Part shown: one piece after another, positions 19,732-48,070 of the stretch | How the letters are laid out: the number at the start of each line of letters is the position of its first letter | Numbering within the stretch: position 1 is the first letter of the stretch | DNA from: Escherichia phage KIT06 | Strand: one strand, 5' to 3' | Sequence record: OQ349392.1 | Length of the DNA: 64,000 nucleotides | Notes under the pieces: generated by a model | Databases searched by the model: none | Told to the model about the DNA's origin: nothing | The model's input: the letters and a program-made list of their open reading frames with translations, nothing else | Program-made: the position numbers and the translations under genes

Positions 19732-20736
19732 TTAAAATGTAAACAGAATATTGATTTCTTCTGTTTGATCCATTGCCATGATAATAGGTGGCCTATTTTC
19801 CATATAAATCATTTCGCCCGAATGCCTCATTAAATCTTCCGGATCATAATAATCCTTTTCAGCTTTAACGTTTGGGTCATTTGGATGAGCTTTAGCTTCA
19901 AGAGGATTCGTGATTATTGATATTTGTCTAAATCCTTTATTTCCTGGCAATGCAGCTTCAGGAAAATAAACTGAATCTAAATATGCTTTAAAACGGATAG
20001 TATTTGCCTTAACCCGATAAATTAATCCAAAATCGTCTTGTTGCCAAGTGAGATTATCTTCATATCCCCATCTAGTCGGGTCTTCTTTTAATTCCTCAGG
20101 CCAAGGAACCACGATATATTCATTCGTACATCTATTTATAGATACATCAGGCGGAATCTCAAATAGATATTCCCACACATACCCGTCTCCGGGTTCAATT
20201 GTTCCTTCAGCATCTCCTCGACCTTCAGGAGGAGTCATTGACCTAGCAGAAGGAGTCCATTTTCCACCTAACTTAAGGCATTCATCCTTATCAGTTAAAG
20301 ATGCTATTGAACACATTCCTGTGTCAGGAACATCTAAACAACGATATACTAACCAGCCTGCGCCTGATTCGGTAGCATTGTAAGGAGCTGAGTTACACAC
20401 TACAATATCATTAATTCTAAATGTGTATGGATCCGGATATCTAGTATCTCCCCAATCTCTGCGAGGAATAACTGCATCAAGCATTGATGGAAGAACTTTT
20501 ACTGTTCCCATCATATGAGTCCACATGTCAGTTACACCTAATACAGAATCGGTAGGATAAGGTGGGGCAAAGCCCACCTCATTTTCATTTGATGACCACG
20601 GTTCTGATCTTCCAAATGTGATAAAGATAGTGTTTTTATCCGGACCACTTCCAATTGAATTATAAAAATTCAACATTTTTTCTGTTCTAAATTTTGAAGT
20701 AACTATCGCACGATAGATAACACTTGAATCATTCAT
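19732..20736 (-). CDS. 8: baseplate wedge protein gp8
   Basis: 334-aa ORF; size and synteny match T4. Confidence 0.93.
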   Translation of the reverse strand: MNDSSVIYRAIVTSKFRTEKMLNFYNSIGSGPDKNTIFITFGRSEPWSSNENEVGFAPPYPTDSVLGVTDMWTHMMGTVKVLPSMLDAVIPRRDWGDTRYPDPYTFRINDIVVCNSAPYNATESGAGWLVYRCLDVPDTGMCSIASLTDKDECLKLGGKWTPSARSMTPPEGRGDAEGTIEPGDGYVWEYLFEIPPDVSINRCTNEYIVVPWPEELKEDPTRWGYEDNLTWQQDDFGLIYRVKANTIRFKAYLDSVYFPEAALPGNKGFRQISIITNPLEAKAHPNDPNVKAEKDYYDPEDLMRHSGEMIYMENRPPIIMAMDQTEEINILFTF

Positions 20737-23700
20737 CTATTTTAACCTGTGTTGGATTTTCAGGGTCTCTTGGATTTCCTATATCGTCTTTTAGACGTTT
20801 ATTAACTAAATCCCTAAATTGTGCAAATGTTGTTCCAGATGCATCAAATAAAGGACTCATTAATTTACGTCGTTCAGACGGCAATTGACCTTGAAATATT
20901 GAATTATTATTTTCAGCATTATAGTCATCAGGAAGAGGATATTTTACACCAGCCATTGGGCCAGGTTCATAAATTGCTTCGCCTGTTACCGAATCATGCT
21001 CAATTTCACCAGCTGGAGTCAATTTAGCTACTCTATCAGCATATTCAGTAGGCAATCCAGAATCCCATTTATAGTTTTTGTATTTATTAATTATAGTCTC
21101 TGTATGTTTAAGAGTTAAACCAACATTAATAAACATCGTTAAAAGAGTAATTGCTATAAATCCAAATCCTACTGGATGAACAAAACGAATAACGTCGGAT
21201 TTCCAGCGGGAAGAAGGCAAATTGGATTTAATTTTCATTACATAATATGATCGACTTCTATTAATATAGTCTATATTATTTTGAAGCAAATCCTTCCCTT
21301 TAACTCCACGAATAATTTCGCCTTCAAAACTAGGGAGTCTTTCTGCTTTAACTTCTTGACCGGCAATTAATCTTCCTAAAAGATTATGAATAGTTACAGT
21401 CCATTGCAATTTACCGTTAGAATAACTTCTTTCTATATAAGTAACATTACATCTTCCTGTGGCTGTATAAATCGTTTGTCCTACTAAGTCTTCAGTCAAA
21501 GAATCAGATTGAACGATTATATCATATTCAGTACCAGCCCCAGATTCAATTTCAATTTCAACCTCTTCATTATAAAGAACTTTAAAAAGAAATTTGTATG
21601 ATGCTTCAATTCCTTTAGTAGAATAAAAATCATAGCTACGTGATTCGAAAAATCTTGGTACCAGCCCCAGATTCAATTTCAATTTCAACCTCTTCATTAT
21701 AAAGAACTTTAAAAAGAAATTTGTATGATGCTTCAATTCCTTTAGTAGAATAAAAATCATAGCTACGTGATTCGAAAAATCTTGCAACAGCATCACGTTT
21801 GTCAGCATTTAAATAAATGTTTCTTTTATATATCTCTGACCACAAATATTCCCATGCATGCTCTTCTCGTGGATATTTGTTACGAATTAAATTTCGTAAA
21901 TTGTTATATTGGGTTCCATATCCATCAGAAAGATATTGAATATATGCTTCGCAAAATGCCTCAAAATTCGAATCCTGTAACAAATAAGAATCAGGCATCA
22001 TTGTGCCAATCAATGGTCTTAAATCAGGGTCAGCTAATCCACGCTCTTCTTCAGGCGACCAAGGAGTTTCATGCTCTTGGTTTTGTAAAAATGCTTTTAA
22101 AAATACTTCAGTTGGCTTCCAAATAATTTCTACAGTGTCTCTAACACGATAGTTAAAATCATAGTAAGAAATTATTTCACCAGAAGCTTTATAGAAAAGC
22201 ATCCCAGATGCATATTTTTTAAATCCAGTGAATTTAACATTTGGCATTACTATAGTGCAATCGCCATCGTCCCAATATTCATGAACTAATCTATCTGGTG
22301 ATGTTTCCGGAATATTTTCTATAACTTTAGTGTATTTTAAATCAGCATAAACTACTACAACCCTATCAGAGTTGTTTATCCAACAACGTGTGTTAGATTT
22401 TTTAGACCAGTTAAAGAATGGTTCAGCGTAGTATTTCATCGGCTGAGGAGTAAAAGTTTCCCAATCAGACTTTTCATCTGCTATAAATGCCATCATATGA
22501 TAATGCTTATCAGCTAGCCATTCACGAGGAAATTCATATTTAACGGCACCGATTAACTGATATTTTGCTGCAGTTTCAGGGTCATTAACAACATTATCAC
22601 TTAAAAATTTAAAATTACTCGATGATAGAGAAACTAATTTACCATCAGTTGACATATTCGCATACCCTGGTTGAATACGTCTTCTTTCTTCTTCAGTGTT
22701 GCCAAAAACTCTTTTCCATGTTTTTGTGTCATGATTTAAAACATATATTCCTTTATCAGCAGAATCAATTATTTTTGATGTTCTAGGATTAGCATTTAAT
22801 GTTTCAACTTCACCAATAATAAGAGCAAAAACTTTATCACCGACAGAATCCATTTTATAGCATACTGCTTTAGGATTTCCGGTTATAGTCATAGTATCAG
22901 GTTCAAAAAGTCTTTCCGAATATGTCGGAGATAATGGATCAGAATCTATAGGTGCATTACTCGTTTTTATGTATCTAACTTTGTCTCTGGCGACAACGTA
23001 AATGTAATCATCGGTGCAAGTAATAGCTTCTGCAATGCGATATACATTAGCTGGTAAAGTCGCGTAAGTGGCAAAAATTTCTACATCAAATCCTAGATGT
23101 AATTGGTCACCGAGTTTAGCGAATGTTATATCCTGCGAACTAAATCTGACATCATCAGCTGACCATCTAACATCAGTCGATTTGCGGCCATAGAAAATCT
23201 TGTCGTATCCTAGAACGTATGTTGTGTTCGCAGATTGGTAATATACTGTCTTAGATAAAGGATATCCTACGCGGTCATTGAAGAGCTTTACAGCTTTCCA
23301 GGTTTGTCCTTTATCATTAGATACTTTAACTACAGGTTGATAACGCTCAAAAAGATATAGAATCCCTTCTGATTCCATCAAATAAACTCGGTTAATATCC
23401 TTACATACTTGCTGAATAGAACCTTGTATTTCATGATACTCATTTTCACCAATAATAAAATTACTTATTGATGAAACATCAACATATGATGGGCTGAATT
23501 GAAACGATTCATTCATCAATGCAGCCATTATAGTGTCATTGTTAAAATTGACATAATCAGAATTATTAAGAGTAAATTTTTCCTGAATGAATTTATTAGC
23601 TAATTGCATTTCAATCATGTTTTGAAATGTATAAGCATTTGTAGCAAAAGTTTCAAACTCTTCGGTATAAATCCAATCAGACTGCTCAAAATCTTGTGCA

Positions 23701-23954
23701 GCTGTAGCTACTCTAATAACGTATGATGTCAATGGGTCAGCATCATCAAAAAAGAAGCTGTTATTTGCAGTATATCCTAAGTTAATCCATCTGTATTGAT
23801 TACTCGGGAGATTTTCCCCCGAGTTTGTTTTTGTCTCAGCGATTTCTACAAAATAGTAGAAATTAGCACCAACGTCATCCCAGCGTACTTGCACCTGATT
23901 TGCGGATAACTTGGAAATTCTGAGACTAGTGACTGAAGGTGCTTTTACTGTCAT
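20729..23954 (-). pseudogene. 7: baseplate wedge initiator gp7, reading frame interrupted by a 127-bp perfect tandem duplication
   Basis: Two overlapping track ORFs (21636..23954, 772 aa; 20729..21808, 359 aa) share the peptide RFFESRSYDFYSTKGIEASYKFLFKVLYNEEVEIEIESGAGT; the span is 3226 nt and deleting one 127-nt copy gives 3099 nt = 1033 codons, the T4 gp7 length. Confidence 0.9.
21531..21784. repeat. perfect direct tandem duplication, 2 x 127 bp (21531-21657 and 21658-21784)
   Basis: The two units read identically base for base; 127 is not a multiple of 3. Confidence 0.95.
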
Positions 23955-25933
23955 TGTGATATAGGCTCCAAATCGATAGTTAAGTATTGTGGACGTAAGT
24001 CATTTTCAAATACAATCAGTGAACCATCGCGAGTAAAGATAACATCATCGGTTGGGTCAGAATATAATTCAATAGTCTGAACTTCAAATTTTTCAGATGT
24101 TAAATTAATTTTAGCGATATTCCAATAAATCACATCAGCTGGATAATTTATTTCACCGATAACATAGTATTTGTCGCGTCCATCAGAATTTGCTAATTTG
24201 TTAAAATCGTTGCCTGTATACGGCTGAATGTTTTCATTTTCTGTAACATCGCCAGAAGCAAATGGACCAATAATAACTTTACCAATTCCTTTAGAATCTC
24301 GGTCTGTTGATACTATGCGAACGTCATATAATACATCTTCTTCTAAACCAGTATCAGGATTTACAACCTTTCGTCCAGAATTAAATGAAAACGTATTAGA
24401 TTCCATAGAACGATCTTTTATTTGATTATTGTATTTAATACCTGCTTCAGGCGTTTTATAGAAGTTTTGTACTTCACGAACAATTTGAATTGTCGCTGAT
24501 GAACCAATGATAGAATGATCTGCATCATCTACATATGTCAACATCTTAGATTTAGCGAAAGATGAGTTAAAAATTTCTACGTCTTCGGTATAATAACGAT
24601 CAATTTTATCAATTATTTGACCTTCAAGCCACTGTTCGGATTCTTGCAGCTTATTTAAAGCATATGTGACTTTTAAATTAGTCTTAATAAAAAGATAATT
24701 AGGAGAAATAATTGATGGCGTAATAGGAGCTAAATTATAGTCTTTGAGATAATTTTTAATATCTTCGCGTTGTACAGTAGTTAAATACAACCCTGATTTA
24801 GGTTTAGCAGCAATAAATGCATAACCAGGTTTAGTAGAATCAGTGAAAGTCTGAACTGCTTGAATAATAGAACCAAATCTCTCTGAAACGAATGTATCAT
24901 AGTCAGTCGCAGTTACGCAGCGTTGCTGGGTTTCACGTTTAATAGTACCCAATTCGCGAATACGTTCAATATCTTCTGGGTCACCGCCGCCATCTGCCCC
25001 AACAAAATCTGGGTCATCGTTTGGATTTTCATTAATGTTGATGACAGTTATATTTGTTAATGTATCTGCGTATGAAAATCCGACTGCGCCATTCGCATCG
25101 GCACCGTTAGTACTGATGTACTCAATAACAATCGTAGAGTTCTGGGTAGGTTTAAGACCTCCAATGTAATTAGCGGTCAATGCTCCTTCTGCCGCATTAA
25201 CAGAAATCTCACCTTCACCAAAATAAAATTCAGTATTTCCATCAATAGTTTCACGCATGTAGTAAATTGTTGATGTAGAACCAGCATGAACCATTGACTT
25301 TCTTGTCCAGTTAATCCATTCTGCTCCATCAACATACAGCTTAACTTGGTTTCTATCTATATTTTTGTCATAAATGATAATAGGTGTTAATTTATCATAA
25401 ATGATTTCAGTTCTTACTATACGTCCCTGGGCTAATTTTAAACGCGGAAAATATTGGTTATTTTTATCGCGAATAGCAATAACATCTTCGGTAGAGACAA
25501 AGTTATAAGGATTAACAGAAGTATCCTTTGCATATGCTAAAAAGCGAGTACCACGAGGAATAGTAATGTAATTTCTATTCAATGCGTCTGTACAAGTTAG
25601 CATAATTTCAGTTTGAGCAGCTGATTTTGAAGTAGGTAAATATCCATTATCTTGTGCAGCTTGAACTACTGAACTACGTAAGTTAGCAGTACGCATAAAG
25701 CTTTCATACACGGCAGCATTACCAAACTGCTGAATGTATAATGTGTTATAAGCCAAAAGGTCGCACAGAACGTTTAATCTTGAGCCTTCAAAATCATAAT
25801 CCAAAAATTCATTTTGACCATTAAGCCATTCAATGAGGTTTTGTTTTATTTCAGCAAATGTACCCCCGACGAATATCTCGGGAATAGCATTTGCTGTTCT
25901 TGTTAATTGATAATTTACAGGGGTATTTGCCAT
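23951..25933 (-). CDS. 6: baseplate wedge protein gp6
   Basis: 660-aa ORF; size and synteny match T4. Confidence 0.93.
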   Translation of the reverse strand: MANTPVNYQLTRTANAIPEIFVGGTFAEIKQNLIEWLNGQNEFLDYDFEGSRLNVLCDLLAYNTLYIQQFGNAAVYESFMRTANLRSSVVQAAQDNGYLPTSKSAAQTEIMLTCTDALNRNYITIPRGTRFLAYAKDTSVNPYNFVSTEDVIAIRDKNNQYFPRLKLAQGRIVRTEIIYDKLTPIIIYDKNIDRNQVKLYVDGAEWINWTRKSMVHAGSTSTIYYMRETIDGNTEFYFGEGEISVNAAEGALTANYIGGLKPTQNSTIVIEYISTNGADANGAVGFSYADTLTNITVININENPNDDPDFVGADGGGDPEDIERIRELGTIKRETQQRCVTATDYDTFVSERFGSIIQAVQTFTDSTKPGYAFIAAKPKSGLYLTTVQREDIKNYLKDYNLAPITPSIISPNYLFIKTNLKVTYALNKLQESEQWLEGQIIDKIDRYYTEDVEIFNSSFAKSKMLTYVDDADHSIIGSSATIQIVREVQNFYKTPEAGIKYNNQIKDRSMESNTFSFNSGRKVVNPDTGLEEDVLYDVRIVSTDRDSKGIGKVIIGPFASGDVTENENIQPYTGNDFNKLANSDGRDKYYVIGEINYPADVIYWNIAKINLTSEKFEVQTIELYSDPTDDVIFTRDGSLIVFENDLRPQYLTIDLEPISQ

Positions 25934-32487: not shown

Positions 32488-32498
32488 TTTCACAAAGT

Positions 32499-32530
32499 TG
32501 TTTACACGCTGATGAGGTAGTGATACTATT
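32499..32530 (+). promoter_or_regulatory. early promoter plus stem-loop module (PeSL-like) upstream of ipI
   Basis: GTTTAC -35 at 32499-32504, gtGATACTAT -10 region, inverted repeat gatgag/ctcatc around the -10. Confidence 0.6.
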
Positions 32531-32559
32531 ATCTCATCAAAATTAATTAGGAAAATAAA

Positions 32560-32847
32560 ATGAAAACTTTCAAAGAATTTACTTCTACAACTATCCCGGT
32601 TTCTACTATTACTGAAGCTACTCTTACTTCTGAAGTTATTAAAGCAAATAAAGGACGAGAAGGTAAACCAATGATTAGTTTGGTTGATGGCGAAGAAATC
32701 AAAGGTACTGTTTACCTAGGTGATGGGTGGTCTGCTAAAAAGGATGGTGCTACAATCATTATCTCTCCTGCTGAAGAAACTGCGTTGTTTAAAGCTAAAC
32801 ACATTTCTGCGGCACATCTCAAGATTATTGCTAAAAATCTTTTGTAA
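32560..32847 (+). CDS. ipI: internal protein I precursor (capsid-targeted; mature IPI* would be 76 aa)
   Basis: 95-aa ORF with capsid targeting sequence MKTFKEFTSTTIPVSTITE followed by ATLTSEVIKANKGREGKPMISLVDGEEIKG... Confidence 0.9.
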   Translation: MKTFKEFTSTTIPVSTITEATLTSEVIKANKGREGKPMISLVDGEEIKGTVYLGDGWSAKKDGATIIISPAEETALFKAKHISAAHLKIIAKNLL

Positions 32848-32865
32848 TAAATATTTCACAAAGTT

Positions 32866-32897
32866 GTTTACATAGGGTTTTAGTTGTGATACTATTA
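32866..32897 (+). promoter_or_regulatory. early promoter plus stem-loop module (PeSL-like)
   Basis: GTTTAC at 32866-32871; gtGATACTAT -10 region; inverted repeat tagggt/accctat. Confidence 0.6.
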
Positions 32898-32923
32898 CCC
32901 TATCAACTACTGAGGAGAATAAA

Positions 32924-33196
32924 ATGAAAACATTTAAAGAATTTATCAATGAAGCTACTTTTAACGAAAAAGTAAAAATTAGCAAAGCTGTCAAGACTAT
33001 GATTGATAACATCAATTACCTATATGGTATTGATTTAACTGACTATGTAACAGTTGGTAACAAACGTAACTATTTCGTGTTTGACATCTCTGAACTTGAC
33101 CAGAATCAAATTAACAACATTGAGCGTTTTGCTAATGATAAGGGTCTTCGTCATGAGTCAGCGGGTTATAAAAAATACGCAATTTATTTAAAATGA
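32924..33196 (+). CDS. internal-protein-like capsid-targeted protein (ip cassette 2)
   Basis: 90-aa ORF starting MKTFKEFINEA (CTS-like), own promoter module, unrelated body sequence. Confidence 0.7.
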   Translation: MKTFKEFINEATFNEKVKISKAVKTMIDNINYLYGIDLTDYVTVGNKRNYFVFDISELDQNQINNIERFANDKGLRHESAGYKKYAIYLK

Positions 33197-33228
33197 GTTT
33201 ACTTTTAAATAGGGTTGTGGTACTATTA
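33197..33228 (+). promoter_or_regulatory. early promoter plus stem-loop module (PeSL-like)
   Basis: GTTTAC at 33197-33202; gtGGTACTAT -10 region; imperfect inverted repeat. Confidence 0.55.
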
Positions 33229-33256
33229 CCTTATCAAAATTAATTAGGAAAATAAA

Positions 33257-33565
33257 ATGAAAACTTACCAAGAATTTATCAATGAAGCGGCTGCACCAAA
33301 GACATTCATTATTTATACTCAAGCGGGTCTTGATGATGAGTATGCGGAAGCAATTCTGAGGTCACTTGCTAAGAACGGCGTTGAAGTAATCGCCTCGGAC
33401 TTTAAGAAAGGGGCTTCCGAGCTGTTTATTTCTATAACTAAAGGATCTAAAGCTAAAATCAAATCATCATTCGGAGTTGCTCGTACCGATCAAATCGACA
33501 ATCATGACTTTAAACAAACTGGTGCTAAACGGCAGAACACAATTGCATCACGCGGAATAAAATAG
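33257..33565 (+). CDS. internal-protein-like capsid-targeted protein (ip cassette 3)
   Basis: 102-aa ORF starting MKTYQEFINEAAAPK (CTS-like). Confidence 0.7.
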   Translation: MKTYQEFINEAAAPKTFIIYTQAGLDDEYAEAILRSLAKNGVEVIASDFKKGASELFISITKGSKAKIKSSFGVARTDQIDNHDFKQTGAKRQNTIASRGIK

Positions 33566-33575
33566 TTTATAAACC

Positions 33576-33607
33576 GTTTACTTTTAGATAGGGTAGTGAT
33601 ATTATTA
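33576..33607 (+). promoter_or_regulatory. early promoter plus stem-loop module (PeSL-like)
   Basis: GTTTAC at 33576-33581; gtGATATTAT -10 region; inverted repeat tagggta/taccctat. Confidence 0.55.
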
Positions 33608-33633
33608 CCCTATCAACTACTGAGGAGAATAAA

Positions 33634-33857
33634 ATGAAAACTTATCAAAAATTTATCGCTGAAGCTAAAAGACATGAAGATGAACTACCAATTGTTACGA
33701 AAACTTTTGATGGTACATTAAGTGATTTTAAAAAATTCCTAGCGATAAACTTTCTAAGTTAACTGGCTCTATTAGTGAAAAGGATGGTAAAGTCACGTTT
33801 TCTGCTCGTGGCACTGCTAATCTTAAAAAGCTTTTGAAAGCTGCTGGAGCGGAATAA
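33634..33857 (+). pseudogene. internal-protein-like cassette 4, frame broken in an A6 run
   Basis: ATG 33634 gives MKTYQKFIAEAKRHEDELPIVTKTFDGTLSDFKKFLAINFLS then stop at 33760; the -1 frame continues from the A-run (33730-33735) as IPSDKLSKLTGSISEKDGKVTFSARGTANLKKLLKAAGAE to 33857. Confidence 0.55.
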
Positions 33858-33860
33858 GTT

Positions 33861-33892
33861 GTTTACTTCTGGGTAGTAGTGTGATACTATTA
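33861..33892 (+). promoter_or_regulatory. early promoter plus stem-loop module (PeSL-like)
   Basis: GTTTAC at 33861-33866; gtGATACTAT; inverted repeat gggtag/taccc. Confidence 0.55.
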
Positions 33893-33918
33893 CCCTATCA
33901 ACTACTGAGGAGAATAAA

Positions 33919-34104
33919 ATGAAACGTTGTGAATTAATTCGAAATGTTGCTATTGCAATTTCTGCTTCCGCTTTTAGTTTTTCAATGTTTGTTGGATTTA
34001 TATGCGGATTATTGACTACAGCAGAAAATGTTTTTTCACTTGTAGTAGCATTTTTAATTGGTTTAATCGCTATTGTTATGGATAAAATTTCTAAAGGTGA
34101 ATAA
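33919..34104 (+). CDS. small two-helix membrane protein
   Basis: 61-aa ORF, two hydrophobic segments, SD gaggagaa upstream. Confidence 0.55.
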   Translation: MKRCELIRNVAIAISASAFSFSMFVGFICGLLTTAENVFSLVVAFLIGLIAIVMDKISKGE

Positions 34105-35406: not shown

Positions 35407-35479
35407 TGGGAATTAGCCAAGTTGGTAAGGCATAGCACTTTGACTGCTAGATGCAAAGGTTCGAGTCCTTTATTCCCAG
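35407..35479 (+). tRNA. tRNA-Gln (anticodon UUG)
   Basis: Cloverleaf folded by hand: acceptor tgggaat/attccca, anticodon loop ctTTGac, T-arm aaagg-ttcgagt-ccttt. Confidence 0.85.
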
Positions 35480-35480
35480 C

Positions 35481-35567
35481 GCGAGAATGGTCAAATTGGT
35501 AAAGGCACAGCACTTAAAATGCTGCGGAATGATTTCCTTGTGGGTTCGAGTCCCACTTCTCGCACCA
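35481..35567 (+). tRNA. tRNA-Leu (anticodon UAA), type II, CCA encoded
   Basis: Acceptor gcgagaa/ttctcgc, anticodon loop ctTAAaa, long variable arm. Confidence 0.85.
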
Positions 35568-35572
35568 AATTT

Positions 35573-35647
<75 letters not shown>

Positions 35648-35657
35648 ATTTAATTTA

Positions 35658-35731
35658 CTCCGTGTAGCTCAGTTTGGTAGAGCGTCTGCTTTGGGAGCAG
35701 AATGTCGCAGGTTCAAATCCTGCCGCGGAGA
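35658..35731 (+). tRNA. tRNA-Pro (anticodon UGG)
   Basis: Acceptor ctccgtg/cgcggag, anticodon loop ttTGGga, T-loop ttcaaat. Confidence 0.8.
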
Positions 35732-35733
35732 CT

Positions 35734-35823
35734 GGAGGCGTGGCAGAGTGGTTTAATGCACCGGTCTTGAAAACCGGCAGTCGCTCCGGCGACTCATAGG
35801 TTCAAATCCTATCGCCTCCGCCA
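35734..35823 (+). tRNA. tRNA-Ser (anticodon UGA), type II
   Basis: Acceptor ggaggcg/cgcctcc, anticodon loop ctTGAaa, long variable arm. Confidence 0.85.
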
Positions 35824-35828
35824 GTTTT

Positions 35829-35904
35829 GCTGATTTAGCTCAGTAGGTAGAGCAACTCACTTGTAATGAGAAGGTCGGCGGTTCGATTCCGTCAATCAGC
35901 ACCA
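35829..35904 (+). tRNA. tRNA-Thr (anticodon UGU)
   Basis: Acceptor gctgatt/aatcagc, anticodon loop ctTGTaa. Confidence 0.85.
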
Positions 35905-35905
35905 A

Positions 35906-35980
35906 GGCCCTGTAGCTGGAAGGTTCAAGCAAGCGACTCATAATCGCCAGATGGTGGTTCAATTCCACCCAGGGCCACCA
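35906..35980 (+). tRNA. tRNA with anticodon CAU (Ile by lysidine modification as in T4, or Met)
   Basis: Acceptor ggccctg/cagggcc, anticodon loop ctCATaa. Confidence 0.8.
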
Positions 35981-35989
35981 AATTAATTT

Positions 35990-36076
35990 GGGGAGTTATC
36001 CCGTAGAGGTAGCGGTGTGGACTGTAAATCCATTGTCATTGCGACTCGGGTGGTTCGACTCCATCACTCCCCACCA
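35990..36076 (+). tRNA. tRNA-Tyr (anticodon GUA), type II
   Basis: Acceptor ggggagt/actcccc, anticodon stem gtgga/tccat, loop ctGTAaa, long variable arm, T-loop ttcgact. Confidence 0.7.
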
Positions 36077-36080
36077 ATTT

Positions 36081-36155
36081 GGATGTGTAGCTCAATGGCA
36101 GAGCGATCGCCTGTTAAGCGATTGGTTATAGGTTCGAATCCTATCACGTCCGCCA
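36081..36155 (+). tRNA. tRNA-Asn (anticodon GUU)
   Basis: Acceptor ggatgtg/cacgtcc, anticodon stem atcgc/gcgat, loop ctGTTaa, T-loop ttcgaat. Confidence 0.75.
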
Positions 36156-36159
36156 AATC

Positions 36160-36235
36160 CGAGGCATAGCTCAGAAGGAAGAGCAAGGACCTTCTAAGTC
36201 CTAGGTCGTAGGTTCGATCCCTATTGCCTCGACCA
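36160..36235 (+). tRNA. tRNA-Arg (anticodon UCU)
   Basis: Acceptor cgaggca/tgcctcg, anticodon stem aggac/gtcct, loop ctTCTaa. Confidence 0.85.
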
Positions 36236-36941: not shown

Positions 36942-37074
36942 GGCATCTAGGCCTTTCTGGACCTCTCTAGGCATCATTTAGTTTCTACCCTTTATAATAT
37001 ATTATCCTACATTTTAATTGCCCCTCCCTGCCCTAGAATTCCCTAAAACTTTTTAAAAAATTTTTCACAAAACT

Positions 37075-37106
37075 GTTTACATCCCCGTTCTTCCATGGTA
37101 CTATAC
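37075..37106 (+). promoter_or_regulatory. early promoter (GTTTAC ... tGGTACTATac)
   Basis: GTTTAC at 37075-37080 and gGTACTATAC at 37097-37106, upstream of ORF 37149. Confidence 0.55.
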
Positions 37107-37148
37107 AACTATCAACTACTGATACAGAAAAACAACTTGGAGAATGAA

Positions 37149-37412
37149 ATGGATAATTACGGCGAACTGTTCAACTTCTTTATGAAATGCGTTTCAGAAG
37201 ATTTCGGTCGTACAGTGAATGATATTAAAGTCATCGGTCCTGACCATCCGATGTTTGAAACTTACGCAGTAATGGGTAATGAAGACGGTCAGTGGTATAC
37301 TGTAAAAGTTGTGATTAATATGTTCACTGCTGAAGGTTATGTTAAACTGTCTTCTAAAGTTTACCACGATAACGATGAAATCGCAGAAGAATATTTCAAT
37401 AATATGAAATAA
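37149..37412 (+). CDS. hypothetical protein (e.8-position)
   Basis: Track ORF 37095..37412; ATG at 37149 preceded by ggagaa; 87 aa. Confidence 0.55.
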   Translation: MDNYGELFNFFMKCVSEDFGRTVNDIKVIGPDHPMFETYAVMGNEDGQWYTVKVVINMFTAEGYVKLSSKVYHDNDEIAEEYFNNMK

Positions 37413-37480
37413 GTGTGTACAAACACCAAGGACGGTGTTATTATAGATTTATCAAAACAATCACAGAAGCGGAGAAATAA

Positions 37481-37657
37481 ATGACTATTTTAACTATTTG
37501 GTTTGACGAAAATGAAGAAACATACTGTGTGAACATTGATGAAAGTCCAATGCCTGACTTTGAATCTTCAGATAAAAACTCGGTTGTATCTTGGGCTGAA
37601 GGTTATAAAGCAGCAAAAGGCGATGTTGAAATAGTTTACAAACTATCCGGAGTATAA
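37481..37657 (+). CDS. hypothetical small protein (58 aa), not in the ORF track
   Basis: Translated by hand: ATG 37481 with SD agcggagaaataa; MTILTIWFDENEETYCVNIDESPMPDF...; stop TAA. Confidence 0.45.
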   Translation: MTILTIWFDENEETYCVNIDESPMPDFESSDKNSVVSWAEGYKAAKGDVEIVYKLSGV

Positions 37658-37700
37658 TACTCTCATGGATTTTAAATCTTAATTAACCTAAGGAAATACT

Positions 37701-38294
37701 ATGAACACACTGAAGAAAATTGTTGATTTTATTCGCACTAAACTTGGTTCTGCAATGGCTAAAAATCTATCTGTTGAAGAACAGTATACTGCTGCAGCAG
37801 CAAAACTGCTTGATAAAATTAAAGACCTAAAAACTGCTTCTGTTAAATCTATTAATGAAGAAAAACGTATTCGTGAACTTATTGTTGAAAAGAATAAACA
37901 GGCTGAATCAAAAGAGCGTGAAATTCGCAAGCTTCTTTCCGAAGGTCAAGATGTAACAATGCATGCTAAACTCGGTTTACTATATCGCCGAACAGCTGAG
38001 CAGTTGACTACTAAAGCTGACGGTTATGCTGAAATGCGAATTGAAATCGCCAAGAAAGTAGTTGAGTTAGATGATGCTCGCCAAGAACTTGCGGTTAAAT
38101 TGGAATATATCCGTGAAACTCGTGCGGCAAATGCCCTTGGAATTAGTACTGCCGATGATGTAGTTGAAATTGCAGCACTGACTAAGGTTGATATTGAAGA
38201 TACCCTTGCTCGAGTTGAAACCTTTAATGGTAATATTTCCGGGGTTGAAACTACCTCTGCCGATGTTCAGGAATACATTAATTCTCTGAAATAA
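37701..38294 (+). CDS. coiled-coil protein, possibly PspA/IM30-like
   Basis: 197-aa ORF, SD aaggaaa upstream; long heptad-rich helical sequence with loose resemblance to PspA. Confidence 0.5.
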
Positions 38295-38299
38295 TGATA

Positions 38300-38315
38300 A
38301 GGGGCTTCGGCCCCT
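38300..38315 (+). terminator. hairpin after ORF 37701..38294
   Basis: aggggc-ttcg-gcccct stem-loop immediately after the stop codon. Confidence 0.5.
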
Positions 38316-38335
38316 ATTACTTGGAGTAAATAGGA

Positions 38336-38944
38336 ATGAAAATGCAAAGTGATTTCAATTCAATGTTTGAAGAGTTCCAAAGACAGGTTGATGTTCCAGA
38401 TCAATTACTAAATGCTCTTAAACGTATGGCAGAAGGACGTAATTACTATTGGGGGTCTTCATATGAAACTGATGAAAGCCTTTCTGGAAGATTTTATAAA
38501 GGTAAAAAGTCTTTAATACGTCCTGGAATACTCATTAAAAGTATTGAATCAATTCATTCATTGACGTGTGATTTTGATGTTGAATTTACTGATTTCATTT
38601 CTCCTGAATGGACAGTTTGTTATTTAAATGACGATTATGATTATCTTGGCGTTTACAGTTTAAGTGACGCATGGTTTAAACGTAATTTACAAAAGTCAAA
38701 TTTATTTTATATTGATACTACGGTAAAATTTCAGGGAAAGAAATATTTCTTTACTCTTATAGTTGATTCTGAAACAAAACATGAAAATAAACGTATTCTT
38801 AGTAAAAAGAATATCTTGACTATTGTTGATGATCTTTTTGATAAATTCGTAGAAAATCCTAATTTTGAAAGCGATTTATTATTAGAAAAATTTGTTAAGG
38901 AATGTAGAGAATATGTCAAAGCCATCACTATACCTTCCAAGTAA
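38336..38944 (+). CDS. hypothetical protein, first of four tandem paralogs sharing a C-terminal FVxECR motif
   Basis: 202-aa ORF; C-terminal ...EKFVKECREYVKAITIPSK. Confidence 0.6.
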   Translation: MKMQSDFNSMFEEFQRQVDVPDQLLNALKRMAEGRNYYWGSSYETDESLSGRFYKGKKSLIRPGILIKSIESIHSLTCDFDVEFTDFISPEWTVCYLNDDYDYLGVYSLSDAWFKRNLQKSNLFYIDTTVKFQGKKYFFTLIVDSETKHENKRILSKKNILTIVDDLFDKFVENPNFESDLLLEKFVKECREYVKAITIPSK

Positions 38945-39305
38945 ACCTGTGAAGTATGAACTAAAGCGTCAGCTAATTCCTACTGACGTATTAATAGGTC
39001 CTGTGACAGCTATATCATTTGTAATTCTATTGATTGTTGGAATGGTTATAGACTTTATGACTGATATTGAATCTGGCGTAATATTTTTGTTAGTATTAAT
39101 TCTTCCATTAGTAGTTCCATTTTTATTGGTACCTGTAAATTGGGTAGGATATTGGTATCAAGGAAGGCATTATCGTAAACGTGTACGTGAATGGAAAGCT
39201 CAGTGTAAAAAGATTAAAAAGGAACACCAGCTTAAACTAAATATGTATGAATTTAATGAAATTATGAAATTTGTTAAGGAATCACGATGCAAAAGCCAAA
39301 ACTAA
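38913..39305 (+). CDS. membrane protein, tandem paralog family
   Basis: Track ORF 38892..39305 (TTG); ATG at 38913; hydrophobic helices; C-terminal ...EIMKFVKESRCKSQN. Confidence 0.55.
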   Translation: MSKPSLYLPSKPVKYELKRQLIPTDVLIGPVTAISFVILLIVGMVIDFMTDIESGVIFLLVLILPLVVPFLLVPVNWVGYWYQGRHYRKRVREWKAQCKKIKKEHQLKLNMYEFNEIMKFVKESRCKSQN

Positions 39306-39661
39306 ATAAAGTCAAATATTCTTTTTCTGAGTCATTTTTAATTTTTGCTGTGGCGTTGGCTGCAGCTCTTGCTGGTAGTCTTATTGGATTAATGATTGAC
39401 TGTATTATTTTAAACATCCGCAGTAACGTCAGCGGTATAGTAGATATAATAGAAGTTTGGAGTGAACTTCATTATACTATAGCGATTTCATTATTTTCAT
39501 TCTTTGGTATTATTTTATATTTTCATTATGATAATTTTAAAATAAATTGGCAAAGAAAAAAGGATTACAAAATACAATTAAAAGAATATAATAACTACAT
39601 GTCTTATATTGAAAATGAATCAATGAAAGAATTCGTGAATGATTGTAGGAAAATCAAATGA
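39287..39661 (+). CDS. membrane protein, tandem paralog family
   Basis: 124-aa ORF with hydrophobic segments; C-terminal ...MKEFVNDCRKIK; ATGA overlap with next gene. Confidence 0.6.
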   Translation: MQKPKLNKVKYSFSESFLIFAVALAAALAGSLIGLMIDCIILNIRSNVSGIVDIIEVWSELHYTIAISLFSFFGIILYFHYDNFKINWQRKKDYKIQLKEYNNYMSYIENESMKEFVNDCRKIK

Positions 39662-40146
39662 TTTTAAAAACTCGCTGGTATGATTTAGATGATGGGGACG
39701 ATGGCATTCCAGTTGATAGAGTTGACTGGAATGGCTGTTCCGAAGATATGAAAAATTTGTTAATTAGGGAGTTTAGAATGGGATATCAGCCAGTTAAGCC
39801 ATCTACTGCAACAGATGATAAGTTTGTATGTATTCAAAATGGCCGCGCTAAGTTAACGAACGCTGATTGGTTCACAGATAAAATTATGATTCTGTGGTAT
39901 ATTATTAGTCTTCCTGTGACATCATTCGTATTTTACTTTTTTATAAAAAATCCAATGGACAGAATAGGAGATTGGATTCTTTTAACCATACTTGTTAATA
40001 TTTTTACAGCAGCAATATTATCTGGGATATGGTACACGTTCATTGAAATGCCATGGCGGCTACGCAGACAACAAAAGATTTTTGATGAAAAGAAATATAC
40101 TCAAAATTTAAATAACTTTATCACTGAATGCAGGAAATTAAAATGA
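39658..40146 (+). CDS. membrane protein, tandem paralog family
   Basis: 162-aa ORF with hydrophobic segments; C-terminal ...LNNFITECRKLK. Confidence 0.6.
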   Translation: MILKTRWYDLDDGDDGIPVDRVDWNGCSEDMKNLLIREFRMGYQPVKPSTATDDKFVCIQNGRAKLTNADWFTDKIMILWYIISLPVTSFVFYFFIKNPMDRIGDWILLTILVNIFTAAILSGIWYTFIEMPWRLRRQQKIFDEKKYTQNLNNFITECRKLK

Positions 40147-40583
40147 AAACATTATCAGCTGGTATTATCTTTATGACAGAAGATAAAGATTTATTCATGG
40201 GACGGGTTACTGGTTCTCGTAAGCCTGGAATGATGGCACATCGCTGGGATATCCCAAAGGGCCGCGTAGAAAATTCTGATTTAAGCGCACTAGATGCAGC
40301 ACGAAGAGAATGTTTAGAAGAGACTGGTTTTAACAATTATAATCCAGACCTTCTAGAAGACCTAGGTGTATTTAAATATTCTAGTAATAAAGACTTACAT
40401 CTGTTTTATTATACGATTCCAGTAGAGCATGAGATGTTTAGAAATTGCCATTGCGAGTCTTATTTTGAAAATAAAGATGGCGTTATGATTCCAGAGATGG
40501 ATGCTTTTGCTCTTATTCCTCGTACTCAGTGGCAATATGTGATGGGTCCTTCACTTTACCGAATAATGAACAACCTCTTTTAA
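40143..40583 (+). CDS. nudE: Nudix hydrolase NudE (e.1)
   Basis: Nudix box GRVENSDLSALDAARRECLEETGF; track ORF starts at 40128, but the ATG at 40143 has the SD aggaaa. Confidence 0.8.
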   Translation: MKTLSAGIIFMTEDKDLFMGRVTGSRKPGMMAHRWDIPKGRVENSDLSALDAARRECLEETGFNNYNPDLLEDLGVFKYSSNKDLHLFYYTIPVEHEMFRNCHCESYFENKDGVMIPEMDAFALIPRTQWQYVMGPSLYRIMNNLF

Positions 40584-41114
<531 letters not shown>

Positions 41115-41117
41115 AGT

Positions 41118-41150
41118 TGTTTACTTTCTCCTAGAACTGTGATAGTATAT
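41118..41150 (+). promoter_or_regulatory. early promoter (GTTTAC ... gtGATAGTATAT)
   Basis: GTTTAC at 41118-41123 and -10 region at 41139-41150, upstream of ORF 41186. Confidence 0.55.
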
Positions 41151-41185
41151 TCATAGTTACTAATTAAAATATTTAAAGGAACCAT

Positions 41186-41503
41186 ATGAAAACGTTTAAA
41201 GAATTTATTGCAGAATCTGCCCAAGGACAACGTGTAGAAGGCGGTTATATCTGGATTGAACAAGTTGAGCCGCCAAGTCGCACTTCTACAGGTAAATGGA
41301 AAATTACTGTTGATGGTCCTGGTGGTAAACGTAGGACTCTTAAAGAAATTAATGGGTACTATGAAGAAGCTCTTTCGGATGCAGGAACTTACATGATGCA
41401 AATCATGATTAAAAACCCTGAAAACCGTTTTGCAGCTAGAGTTTTCCGACGCATCGGTAATAAACTTTATGACGCATACTCTAAAAACTTCCCTAAAGAA
41501 TAA
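41186..41503 (+). CDS. ipII: internal protein precursor, IPII-like
   Basis: 105-aa ORF with CTS MKTFKEFIAESAQ; assignment to ipII is by size and position. Confidence 0.65.
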   Translation: MKTFKEFIAESAQGQRVEGGYIWIEQVEPPSRTSTGKWKITVDGPGGKRRTLKEINGYYEEALSDAGTYMMQIMIKNPENRFAARVFRRIGNKLYDAYSKNFPKE

Positions 41504-41529
41504 CATGAATTAAAACAATAGGAACAAAA

Positions 41530-42108
41530 ATGAAAACGTATCAAGAATTTATTGCTGAAGCTTCTGTAGTAAAGGCCAAAGGCATTAATAAGGACGAGTG
41601 GAACTATCGTGGTGGAAACGGCTTTGACCCTAAAACAGCCCCTATTGAACGATACTTAGCTACAAAAGCTTCCGATTTTAAAGCTTTCGCTTGGGAAGGA
41701 CTTCGCTGGCGTACCGATTTAAATATTGAAGTTGACGGACTTAAATTTGGTCATATTCAAGATGTTGTTGCTAGTAACTTGGACGCAGCTTTTGTTAAAG
41801 CTGACGGTGACCTTCGTCGCTGGAATTTAAAACTATTCTCTAAACAGAAAGGCCCGGTGTTTGTGCCTAAAGCTGGTAAATGGGTTATTGATAATAAATT
41901 AGCTAAGGCTGTCAACTACGCTGGCCTTGAATTCGCCAAGCATAAATCATCATGGAAAGGTCTTGATGCAATGGCCTTCCGTAAAGAATTTGCTGATGTT
42001 ATGGCTAAAGGCGGCTTTAAGGCAGAAATAGATACCTCTAAAGGTACGTTTAAGGACGCTAATGTTCAGTACGCTTATGCCGTTGCTAATGCAGCCCGTG
42101 GTAATTAA
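41530..42108 (+). CDS. ipIII: internal protein precursor, IPIII-like
   Basis: 192-aa ORF with CTS MKTYQEFIAEAS; assignment to ipIII is by size and position. Confidence 0.65.
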   Translation: MKTYQEFIAEASVVKAKGINKDEWNYRGGNGFDPKTAPIERYLATKASDFKAFAWEGLRWRTDLNIEVDGLKFGHIQDVVASNLDAAFVKADGDLRRWNLKLFSKQKGPVFVPKAGKWVIDNKLAKAVNYAGLEFAKHKSSWKGLDAMAFRKEFADVMAKGGFKAEIDTSKGTFKDANVQYAYAVANAARGN

Positions 42109-42110
42109 TA

Positions 42111-42128
42111 AGGCCGATACTTAGGCCT
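42111..42128 (+). terminator. hairpin after the ipIII-like gene
   Basis: aggcc-gatactta-ggcct stem-loop immediately after the stop; weak T-tract. Confidence 0.4.
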
Positions 42129-42285
42129 ATTTACATTCAAATAACATGGGAACAACCTGGACCTCATGATTCTATGAGGGATTCCCGCCAACCTGTAATA
42201 AGGTCGAGCCCAAGTGCGGTAATGGGTAAATACAGAAATGGACAATTCATGCGCCATGGAATGGCCCAAATTTAGAGAGAATAAA

Positions 42286-42825
42286 ATGAGAACATTTTTA
42301 ACTGGTCCTTATCTATCCCTGATGAATGCTTTTACACACCATTCTGATGCTAGAGTAGAAGAAATTTGTAAAAACGATTATATCCCACCATTTGAAGACT
42401 TACTCAAACAGTATTGTACACTTCGTTTAGATGGTGGCAGACAATCTGGTAAATCAACTGCAGTAACTAATTTTGCCGCTAATTGGTTATATGATGGTGG
42501 AACAGTTATTGTTCTTTCTAATACTTCAGCTTATGCTAAAATTTCTGCGGGCCACATTAAAAAAGAATTTTCTCGTTATTCTAGCGATGATATTCGATTC
42601 CGCTTATTTACCGATTCTGTCCGTAGTTTTATCGGTAATAAAGGAAGCAAGTTCAGAGGTTTATTGCTTTCGCGAATTTTGTATATAATTGATGATCCTG
42701 TTAAAGCTCCTGATATGGATAAAATTTACGATATTCATATTGAAACTGTGCACCACTGTTGCAATAGTAAATGCTGCATTGGTGGTATTACTCGTCCACA
42801 GTTTTTCATAATCGGAATGCAATGA
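42286..42825 (+). CDS. P-loop NTPase-like protein of unknown function
   Basis: Track ORF 42238..42825; ATG at 42286 with SD gagagaataaa; Walker A-like GGRQSGKST. Confidence 0.6.
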   Translation: MRTFLTGPYLSLMNAFTHHSDARVEEICKNDYIPPFEDLLKQYCTLRLDGGRQSGKSTAVTNFAANWLYDGGTVIVLSNTSAYAKISAGHIKKEFSRYSSDDIRFRLFTDSVRSFIGNKGSKFRGLLLSRILYIIDDPVKAPDMDKIYDIHIETVHHCCNSKCCIGGITRPQFFIIGMQ

Positions 42826-43151
42826 TGACAGACACGCAACTTTTCGAATATCTTTATTTTTCGCCAAAAACTGTTAAAAATAAATTGGTGAATCATTTTG
42901 AAATTTTGGCAAATAACAACGTCTTGAGCGAATTTTATCCTAAGCAATACAAACTACAAAAAGGTGTATTCAAAGGATGCAGAGTTTTGTGCACTGCTCC
43001 TAATGTAAGATTAATGAATAAAATTCCATATTTTACCATGGAATTTATTGATGGGCCTTTTAAAGGACTAATCACGCAGAGTTTAATGGCATATGATTCT
43101 GAGCCATTTTTAATTAAAGAGCAATCTTGGATAAATTTATTTTCTAATTGA
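42822..43151 (+). CDS. hypothetical protein
   Basis: Track ORF 42771..43151; ATG at 42822 overlapping the previous stop (ATGATGA); [13 protein letters not shown]... Confidence 0.55.
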
Positions 43152-43159
43152 GAGGTTAT

Positions 43160-43522
43160 ATGAAAGCATATCAAATTCTTGAAGGCACGCATAAAGGTAC
43201 TATTTATTTTGAAGACGGTATTCAAGCACGAATTATTGTCTCTAAAACTTTTAAAGAGGACTCTTTTGTAGACCCAGAAATTTTCTATGGTTTGCATGCC
43301 CGTGAAATTGAAATTGAAACACAACCTACAGTTAAAATTGAAGGTGGTCAACACCTGAACGTTAACGTTCTGCGTCGTGAAACTCTGGAAGATGCAGTTA
43401 AGCATCCGGAAAAATATCCGCAGCTGACCATCCGTGTATCCGGTTATGCAGTTCGCTTTAACTCTCTGACTCCGGAACAGCAGCGCGACGTTATCGCTCG
43501 TACCTTTACTGAGAGTCTGTAA
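43160..43522 (+). CDS. autonomous glycyl-radical cofactor (GrcA/YfiD-like; T4 Y06I-type)
   Basis: ATG 43160 with SD gagagg; C-terminal about 60 aa ([60 protein letters not shown]) matches the glycyl-radical domain of E. coli GrcA/PflB as I recall it. Confidence 0.85.
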
Positions 43523-43743
43523 TGGCAAAGATAATTATTGAAGGTTCTGAAGATGTGTTAAATGCTTTCGCCGAATGGTTTAGTAATTCAGGCGAACAGC
43601 AATTTAATGAAGCGTGGAACATGGGTGATATTAGTGGAATTTATCCTACGACAGAAATTTCTGTTCAGGGATATGGCATTCATGAGCCTATTCGTTTAAT
43701 TGAATATGATTTGGGTACTGGTGAGGAAGTAAAATATGATTGA
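43522..43743 (+). CDS. hypothetical protein
   Basis: 73-aa ORF, ATGG overlap with the preceding stop. Confidence 0.5.
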   Translation: MAKIIIEGSEDVLNAFAEWFSNSGEQQFNEAWNMGDISGIYPTTEISVQGYGIHEPIRLIEYDLGTGEEVKYD

Positions 43744-44002
43744 AGATATTAAGGGTTATAAGCCACATACTGAAGAGAAAATCGGTAAAGTGAATGCTAT
43801 CAAAGATGCTGAAGTTCGTTTAGGACTTATCTTTGATGCTTTATATGATGAATTCTGGGAAGCACTAGATAATTGTGAAGACTGTGAATTCGCGAAGAAT
43901 TATGCTGAAAGCCTTGATCAGTTAACTATTGCTAAAACTAAACTCAAAGAAGCCAGTATGTGGGCTTGTCGTGCTGTGTTCCAACCAGAGGAAAAATATT
44001 AA
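43736..44002 (+). CDS. hypothetical small protein (candidate vs.4/Acb2-position gene)
   Basis: 88-aa ORF upstream of regB; assignment by position only. Confidence 0.5.
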
Positions 44003-44280
44003 TGGCTCAATTAAGCGCAGGGTTTGGTTATGAGTATTATACTGCCCCTCGTCGTGTATCTGTTGCTCCTAAGAAAATTCAAAGTCTTGATGATTTCCAG
44101 GAAGTAATTCGTAACGCTTTCCAGGACTATGCGCGTTATCTTAAAGAAGATTCACAGGACTGTCTCGAAGAAGATGAAATTGCTTACTATGAGCAGCGTC
44201 TTGAACAGCTTAAAAACTTACATGAGGTTCGTGCAGAAGTTTCAAAGTCTATGAATAAATTGATTAGATTTAAAGAATAA
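44002..44280 (+). CDS. hypothetical protein
   Basis: Track ORF 43960..44280; ATG at 44002 overlapping the previous TAA (TAATG); 92 aa. Confidence 0.5.
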
Positions 44281-44282
44281 CT

Positions 44283-44311
44283 GTTTACTTTTCCTCTTGA
44301 CTGTGGTATAA
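44283..44311 (+). promoter_or_regulatory. early promoter (GTTTAC ... tgtGGTATAAT)
   Basis: GTTTAC at 44283-44288, extended -10 tgtggtataat at 44301-44311, upstream of regB. Confidence 0.65.
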
Positions 44312-44339
44312 TTTTTCTATCAGTTAAGAGGAGAATAAC

Positions 44340-44801
44340 ATGACTATCAACACAGAAGTTTTTATCCGTCGAAATAAGCTCCGTCGTCACTTTGAGTCGG
44401 AGTTTCGTCAAATTAACAATGAGATTCGTGAGGCATCAAAAGCAGCAGGGGTCTCATCGTTTCATCTAAAATATTCTCAGCATCTTCTTGATCGTGCAAT
44501 TCAACGGGAGATTGATGAGACATATGTTTTTGAATTATTCCATAAAATAAAAGACCATGTTTTAGAAGTTAATGAATTCCTGAATATGCCTCCACGCCCT
44601 GACATTGACGAGGATTTTATTGATGGGATTGAATATCGTCCTGGGCGTTTAGAAATCACAGATGGAAATCTTTGGCTTGGATTTACAGTTTGTAAACCTA
44701 ATGCGAAGTTCAAAGACCCGTCGCTTCAATGCAGGATGGCAATTATCAACAGTCGTCGTTTACCGGGAAAGGCTTCTAAGGCAGTAATTAAAACTCAATG
44801 A
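44340..44801 (+). CDS. regB: site-specific endoribonuclease RegB
   Basis: 153-aa ORF (T4 RegB is 153 aa); SD gaggag; early promoter immediately upstream. Confidence 0.8.
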   Translation: MTINTEVFIRRNKLRRHFESEFRQINNEIREASKAAGVSSFHLKYSQHLLDRAIQREIDETYVFELFHKIKDHVLEVNEFLNMPPRPDIDEDFIDGIEYRPGRLEITDGNLWLGFTVCKPNAKFKDPSLQCRMAIINSRRLPGKASKAVIKTQ

Positions 44802-44808
44802 GGTAAGC

Positions 44809-46530: not shown

Positions 46531-46539
46531 GAAGGTGAT

Positions 46540-47121: not shown

Positions 47122-47163
47122 TGCAAAAGTTATAAATAGGTTTATCTAACTAAAGGGGTATAT

Positions 47164-47376: not shown

Positions 47377-47388
47377 TAGGAGGCCTTT

Positions 47389-48065: not shown

Positions 48066-48070
48066 CATTA

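What the first reader, a model, noticed from the sequence alone, without database searches (positions are those of the whole stretch)
21531..21784. Perfect 127-bp tandem duplication breaks the reading frame of essential baseplate gene 7
Positions 21531-21657 and 21658-21784 are identical. The six-frame track splits gp7 into a 772-aa N-terminal ORF and a 359-aa ORF that share a 43-aa peptide. Removing one copy restores exactly 1033 codons, the T4 gp7 length. gp7 is essential for baseplate wedge assembly, so this genome as written encodes a truncated gp7. The zero divergence between copies points to a very recent duplication, a defective or suppressor-dependent mutant, or an assembly artefact.
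Basis: seen in the sequence. Interest (0 to 1): 0.75.

Follow-up and report, generated by a model that had tools for sequence, protein, structure and literature searches.

The report
Assembler overlap left inside phage gene
The perfect 127-base doubling that breaks the essential tail gene 7 of this T4-like phage is almost certainly a leftover of genome assembly (127 is the overlap the SPAdes assembler leaves at contig ends), not a mutation in the virus.

Summary
Window 21531-21657 and 21658-21784 are identical: exactly two copies, with no extension on either side. The duplication splits minus-strand gene 7 into ORFs of 772 and 359 aa. Deleting one copy gives an intact 1032-aa gp7.

The biological readings do not hold.
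1. An independent k=31 assembly of raw reads (Logan, SRA run SRR17680687) contains the same phage. Two of its contigs match the window with 0 mismatches over 21,464 and 11,195 bp. The only difference is that the 127-bp unit occurs once and gp7 is intact. That contig stops at a 34-bp repeat but runs unbroken through gene 7, so the duplication junction is absent or rare in the reads.
2. Every relative examined has a single copy. The junction sequence occurs nowhere else in any collection searched.
3. 127 is the largest k-mer SPAdes allows. [quoted passage not shown]
4. T4-like genomes are circularly permuted and assemble as circles. Re-opening or joining such a contig without trimming the overlap produces exactly this structure.

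Verdict: this is an assembly or finishing artefact, not a real feature (confidence about 0.93). Its only value is for database quality control.

The parts
21531..21657 (.). Copy 1 of the 127-bp unit (downstream copy in gene orientation)
   Evidence: identical to 21658-21784. Either copy can be deleted to restore the gene.
21658..21784 (.). Copy 2 of the 127-bp unit (upstream copy in gene orientation). The artificial junction lies between 21657 and 21658.
   Evidence: The junction 40-mer was not found in viral contigs, metagenome contigs or genome contigs, and a 120-bp query spanning the junction (window 21598-21717) found no match in E. coli genomes.
21636..23954 (-). N-terminal fragment of gene 7 as written (772 aa: gp7 residues 1-766 plus KIFRIT)
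   Evidence: Pfam Gp7_helical at residues 643-689.
20729..21808 (-). ORF holding the C-terminal part of gene 7 (359 aa: 51 out-of-frame residues, then gp7 residues 725-1032)
   Evidence: Pfam Gp7_5th and Gp7_6th.
20729..23954 (-). True gene 7 (baseplate wedge protein gp7). With one 127-bp copy removed it is 3099 nt, 1032 aa.
   Evidence: repair. (100% identical to the gp7 of Logan contig L016). (aligns 1-1032 to T4 gp7 in PDB 5hx2 and 5iv5).
19732..20736 (-). Gene 8 (baseplate wedge protein gp8), intact, downstream neighbour
   Evidence: Pfam Phage-Gp8 at the same position in relatives.
23951..25933 (-). Gene 6 (baseplate wedge protein gp6), intact, upstream neighbour
   Evidence: the identical 660-aa protein is listed in 103 blocks of the collection.

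Best explanation
The duplication is an assembly or finishing artefact. The genome is a T4-like (Tequatrovirus) phage. Its DNA is circularly permuted and terminally redundant, so short reads assemble into a 'circular' de Bruijn path. SPAdes writes such a path as a linear contig whose first and last k bases are the same, and its largest k is 127. If that contig is later re-opened at another position, or if two graph-adjacent contigs are joined end to end, and the k-base overlap is not trimmed, the two copies become adjacent. The result is a perfect 127-bp tandem duplication at an arbitrary place. Here that place is inside gene 7. The phage itself has one copy and a normal 1032-aa gp7. Shown here: the single copy in an independent read-based assembly of the same phage, the single copy in all relatives examined, and the length equal to the SPAdes maximum k. 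Inferred: that SPAdes was the assembler and that the contig was rotated or joined without trimming.
For: (1) Identical phage with one copy. Logan contig SRR17680687_2 (L016, 21,464 bp) is an exact substring of the window once one copy is deleted, with 0 mismatches and 0 gaps. The unit occurs once there, and gp7 is called as 1032 aa. (2) Same phage confirmed elsewhere. A second contig of that run (L024, 11,195 bp) is an exact substring of window 37100-48294. This region is hypervariable, and other relatives there are 93-99% identical and fragmented by indels and gene-content differences. The next-best relative over the structural region is 98.7% identical. (3) The junction would have broken the contig. 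In a k=31 graph the duplication creates branch nodes at 21531, 21628, 21658 and 21755. By coordinate arithmetic the Logan contig ends at window 32565, which is exactly the 30-mer branch node 32536-32565 of a 34-bp repeat. Yet it passes unbroken through gene 7. So the junction k-mers are absent or rare in the reads. (4) Relatives. All 19 relatives spanning the site encode a 1032-aa gp7. All 40 top phage records of 512 span 574 bp, not 701 bp. All ten loci aligned re-use the same 127 bp. (5) The junction was not found in any of the other collections searched. (6) Length. [quoted passage not shown] (7) The copies show zero divergence and there is no junction microhomology. (8) All other structural genes in the window are intact at T4 lengths. 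(9) A frameshift in the essential gene 7 would not allow the plaque-forming stock that was sequenced (established T4 genetics).
Against: The assembly history of the source record is unknown, and the record itself was not found in any collection. Use of SPAdes and a rotation step are therefore inferred from the number 127 alone. It is not proven that the window was assembled from SRR17680687 rather than from a sibling stock. I could not read raw reads, only a k=31 contig made from them. The start coordinate of that contig (window 32565) is computed, not observed.
Confidence: 0.93

Rival explanations
1. A genuine, very recent 127-bp tandem duplication is fixed in the sequenced stock. The phage would then be a gene 7 frameshift mutant, kept alive by complementation at high multiplicity, by a suppressor, or as a defective particle.
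For: The sequence as written contains the duplication. Zero divergence between copies fits a recent event. Spontaneous tandem duplications are known in T4 genetics (own knowledge).
Against: An assembly of reads from a 100% identical phage shows one copy and no graph branch at the site. The junction has no microhomology, whereas illegitimate recombination usually leaves some. A length exactly equal to the SPAdes maximum k would be a coincidence. The window holds no second gene 7 that could complement. Gene 7 is essential for wedge assembly (established knowledge), so such a stock should not propagate as the majority genotype. No tandem duplication of this kind was found in 719 kb of related loci.
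Confidence: 0.04
2. The duplication is real and gp7 is still produced. This could happen by a recoding event (ribosome bypass of 127 nt from the Thr codon ACC at the junction to the Thr codon ACU at the end of the second copy, as in T4 gene 60) or by two polypeptides that assemble together.
For: T4 is the classic case of translational bypassing (gene 60, own knowledge). A duplication automatically supplies matching take-off and landing contexts. The break lies between the Pfam helical domain and domains V and VI.
Against: The identical phage has the single-copy gene, so nothing needs explaining. The RNA around the junction folds no better than shuffled sequence (z = 0.04). No stop codon directly follows the putative take-off codon; the stop comes 6 codons later. 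The 359-aa ORF begins with 51 out-of-frame residues, and nothing marks it as a real gene start. No relative has such an arrangement.
Confidence: 0.01
3. It is an artefact of another kind. It could come from a different assembler or from manual merging of two contigs or amplicons with a 127-bp overlap. It could also reflect a minority variant in the reads that the consensus step promoted.
For: The assembler is not known. Any end-to-end join of overlapping pieces gives a perfect tandem repeat.
Against: 127 specifically matches the SPAdes maximum k and the documented phage-assembly artefact. Other common assemblers leave other lengths, for example the k141_ names of MEGAHIT contigs seen. This rival leads to the same practical conclusion: the feature is not real.
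Confidence: 0.02

Closest known systems
SPAdes k-mer-length terminal overlap on circular or permuted phage contigs ('127 bp artificial overlaps', '127 bp DTR, assembly artefact')
   Same: The length is exactly 127 bp and the copies are 100% identical. The genome is of a type that assembles as a circle. The repeat is absent from an independent assembly of the same phage.
   Different: In the published descriptions the two copies sit at the two ends of the contig. Here they are adjacent and internal, more than 21 kb from either end of the window. That requires an extra step: rotation, re-opening or contig joining without trimming. That step is inferred, not shown.
T4 gp7 baseplate wedge protein (PDB 5hx2, 5iv5)
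   Same: After removal of one copy the product is 1032 aa and aligns 1-1032 with T4 gp7 (2362 bits). It carries the Gp7_helical, Gp7_5th and Gp7_6th domains and lies between genes 6 and 8.
   Different: As written in the window, the gene is split by the duplication into 772-aa and 359-aa ORFs.
Spontaneous tandem duplications and frameshift mutants of T4 (classical rII-type genetics)
   Same: A head-to-tail repeat inside a coding region that shifts the frame.
   Different: There is no junction microhomology. The event lies in an essential gene of a stock that was propagated. It is not present in the read-based assembly of the identical phage.
T4 gene 60 translational bypass
   Same: A T4-like phage with an interruption in a coding sequence that would need to be skipped.
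   Different: The gap would be 127 nt rather than 50 nt. There is no stop directly after the take-off codon, no stable local structure and no conservation in relatives. The interruption is simply a copy of the adjacent coding sequence.

Membership tests
SPAdes k=127 contig-end overlap artefact | Repeat length equals the assembler's final k (127, the SPAdes maximum) | tested here: met
   The repeat is exactly 127 bp with 0 extension on either side. 127 is the largest SPAdes k (PMC5481147).
SPAdes k=127 contig-end overlap artefact | The two copies are identical | tested here: met
   127 of 127 bases match.
SPAdes k=127 contig-end overlap artefact | The organism's real DNA or reads have one copy | tested here: met
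   Logan contigs of SRR17680687 are identical to the window over 32.7 kb, apart from having one copy. The contig is unbroken at the site although it breaks at a 34-bp repeat. Raw reads themselves were not inspected.
SPAdes k=127 contig-end overlap artefact | The replicon assembles as a circle (circular, or circularly permuted and terminally redundant) | tested here: met
   The window is 97-98% identical to Tequatrovirus genomes. Headful packaging and circular permutation of T4-like phages are established knowledge, not tested here.
SPAdes k=127 contig-end overlap artefact | The copies correspond to the two ends of the original contig, and the record was produced with SPAdes | not testable with these tools
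   The source record and its assembly metadata were not found. The truncated ORFs are not on record. No phage record is 100% identical.
T4 gp7 baseplate wedge protein | Full-length sequence homology to T4 gp7 with its domains | tested here: met
   The repaired protein aligns 1-1032 to 5hx2_A. Pfam Gp7_helical, Gp7_5th and Gp7_6th are present.
T4 gp7 baseplate wedge protein | Position between genes 6 and 8 in the baseplate wedge cluster | tested here: met
Genuine tandem duplication mutation | The junction is present in independent sequence data of the same phage | tested here: not met
   L016 has a single copy. The junction 40-mer was not found in viral, metagenome or genome contigs, and a 120-bp junction-spanning query had no match in E. 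coli genomes.
Genuine tandem duplication mutation | Short homology at the duplication end points (usual for illegitimate recombination) | tested here: not met
   0 bp of extension on both sides. This evidence is weak on its own.
Gene 60-type programmed translational bypass | A take-off codon followed at once by a stop, a stable stem-loop at take-off, and conservation among relatives | tested here: not met
   The stop comes 6 codons after the junction. The fold z-score is 0.04. All relatives have an uninterrupted gene.

The most novel reading that the evidence does not exclude
The duplication is real in the deposited phage stock. It would then be a newly arisen 127-bp tandem duplication in essential gene 7. 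The stock would be viable either because the lysate is a mixture with wild type or because gp7 is rescued by ribosomal bypassing or by assembly of two fragments. The match to the SPAdes maximum k would be a coincidence, and SRR17680687 would represent the ancestor.
Probability: 0.03. Interest if true: 0.55.

Novelty: not a real feature. Interest (0 to 1): 0.07.

Why it matters
The finding has no biological significance. The phage almost certainly has a normal gene 7. Its value is practical. The deposited sequence carries a 127-bp error that splits an essential structural gene into two false ORFs. That would mislead annotation, pangenome and protein-clustering work, and screens for 'defective phages'. 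A perfect tandem repeat whose length equals an assembler's k (55, 77, 99 or 127 for SPAdes, 141 for MEGAHIT) is a simple and general quality-control flag for rotated circular assemblies.

Tried and rejected
1. I looked for the source record. Neither the truncated 772-aa ORF nor the 359-aa ORF is on record. No phage record is 100% identical; the best are 98-99%.
2. I searched for the junction 40-mer in viral, metagenome and genome contigs, and a 120-bp junction-spanning query in E. coli genomes. All were negative.
4. The look-up of the 202-aa ORF at 38336-38944 found nothing, probably because the called start differs.
5. I tried to fetch the start of Logan contig SRR17680687_2 through the Acb1 gene. 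The contig was not among the 10 places shown, so its start coordinate remains arithmetic.
6. A literature search for SRR17680687 gave 0 papers.
7. I considered a gene 60-like bypass or a functional split gene. Both are rejected because the identical phage has the uninterrupted gene and there is no structure signal.
8. I considered a second, complementing gene 7 in the window. None exists.

Full report
**Observation.** Window 21531-21657 and 21658-21784 are identical over 127 bp. The array is exactly 2.0 copies. The periodicity extends by 0 bases to the left and 0 to the right, so the junction has no microhomology. This is the only long perfect repeat in the 64-kb window. It is also the only perfect tandem duplication of period 40-400 bp in the window plus 719 kb of 37 related T4-like loci.

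The affected gene lies on the minus strand. As written, it is split into ORFs 21636..23954 (772 aa) and 20729..21808 (359 aa). Deleting either copy gives 3099 nt, which is 1032 aa plus a stop. Two details of the finding need correcting:
- The peptide shared by the two ORFs is 42 aa, not 43.
- The 772-aa ORF holds native residues 1-766 plus KIFRIT, and the first 51 residues of the 359-aa ORF are out of frame.

**What the region is.** The window is a Tequatrovirus (T4-like) genome segment, 97-98% identical to many Escherichia, Shigella and Salmonella phages. It carries the usual structural block, from genes 23, 22, 21 and 20 through 18 and 17 to wac, 12, 11, 10, 9, 8, 7, 6, 5 and 53. Every gene other than 7 is intact at T4-like length. 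The repaired product aligns 1-1032 with T4 gp7 of the baseplate structures 5hx2 and 5iv5. The helical domain falls in the N-terminal ORF and domains V and VI fall in the C-terminal ORF. The window contains no second gene 7.

**Relatives.**
- All 40 best phage records of 512 match the 701-bp query over 574 bp in two overlapping pieces, which means they hold one copy.
- All ten loci carrying the identical gp6 re-use the same 127 bp in two BLAST pieces.
- All 19 loci that span the site encode a 1032-aa gp7 that is 98.3-100% identical to the repaired protein.
- The 40-mer across the junction occurs in no viral, metagenome or genome contig, and a 120-bp query spanning the junction matched no complete E. 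coli genome.

**The decisive result.** One of the contigs carrying the window's exact fibritin protein is Logan contig SRR17680687_2 (47,354 bp). Logan contigs are k=31 assemblies made directly from a public read set.
- The 21,464 bp fetched from it (L016) are an exact substring of the window after one 127-bp copy is removed, with 0 mismatches and 0 gaps. The unit occurs once, and gp7 there is 1032 aa, identical to my repaired protein.
- The next-best relative over that stretch is only 98.7% identical.
- A second contig of the same run (L024, 11,195 bp) is an exact substring of window 37100-48294. This is a hypervariable early-gene region where the other carriers of the query protein are 93-99% identical and fragmented by indels and gene-content differences.

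So this read set holds the same phage as the window. It is very probably the stock the window was assembled from.

**Could a k=31 assembler simply have collapsed a true duplication?** It could not have done so silently. In a k=31 graph of the window, the duplication creates branch nodes at 21531, 21628, 21658 and 21755, because the bases flanking the two copies differ (A versus G on the left, G versus C on the right). Without the duplication, the nearest branch node on that side is the 30-mer 32536-32565, part of a 34-bp repeat between early promoter and gene-start copies. By coordinate arithmetic, position 1 of contig SRR17680687_2 is window 32565, which is exactly that node. The contig therefore does stop at a short repeat, yet it runs through gene 7 without a break. 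I infer that the junction k-mers are absent, or rare enough to be cleaned away, in those reads. This rests on how unitig and contig construction works. I did not see the reads themselves.

[quoted passage not shown] Phage-genomics papers describe exactly this. [quoted passage not shown] T4-like DNA is circularly permuted and terminally redundant (established knowledge), so it assembles as a cycle that SPAdes writes out with a k-base overlap at an arbitrary break point. Re-opening that contig elsewhere, or joining graph-adjacent contigs, without trimming places the two 127-mers side by side. This accounts for four features at once: the length, the perfect identity, the lack of microhomology and the arbitrary location inside a gene. 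The SPAdes and rotation steps are inferred, because the record's assembly history was not available.

**Rivals.**
- *A genuine fixed duplication.* This would be a frameshift in a gene essential for wedge assembly (established T4 genetics). It would be incompatible with the propagated stock, it is contradicted by the read-based contig, and it would need the length to match the SPAdes k by coincidence.
- *A recoding or split-protein rescue.* This has nothing to explain once the identical phage shows the uninterrupted gene. There is also no local RNA structure (z = 0.04), the stop comes six codons after the junction rather than directly at it, and no relative shares the arrangement.
- *A different kind of joining artefact.* This cannot be excluded, but it leads to the same conclusion.

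**Verdict.** The feature is not real as a property of the phage. Confidence in the artefact explanation is about 0.93. Interest is low and limited to data quality. A read-level count of junction-spanning reads in SRR17680687, or a PCR giving 274 bp versus 401 bp, would settle it.

Noticed in passing
window 35407-36235 (+): A tight cluster of 10 tRNA genes: Gln, Leu, Gly, Pro, Ser, Thr, a CAU-anticodon tRNA called Met (possibly Ile, as in T4), Tyr, Asn and Arg. From memory, T4 itself has 8, so this phage would carry two more (Tyr, Asn).
   Followed up: no
window 32492-33952, also 1-49, 37045-37122, 41111-41159, 51957-52059, 52456-52538, 53875-53952: A family of 49-92 nt direct repeats. Each has GTTTAC, a spacer, GATACTAT, then CTATCAA...GAGGAGAATAAAATGAAAAC. 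They look like T4-type early promoters with a ribosome-binding site and the conserved start (MKTFKEFI / MKTYQEFI) of small paralogous early genes. These repeats are where the k=31 Logan contigs break.
   Followed up: partly
L031 20273-20456 (GCA_025336695.1, JAODFN010000001.1, 489,447-bp contig): T4-like phage genes lie on a 489-kb contig directly next to a LysE-family gene. A lytic T4-like genome joined to what looks like bacterial DNA suggests a chimeric assembly in that public record.
   Followed up: no
L034 2651-4687 and L037 1980-4016: Two relatives carry a 678-aa ORF with no Pfam hit between genes 5 and 6. It replaces the small PAAR (gp5.4) and Y07E genes found at that position in the window and in most relatives.
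   Followed up: no
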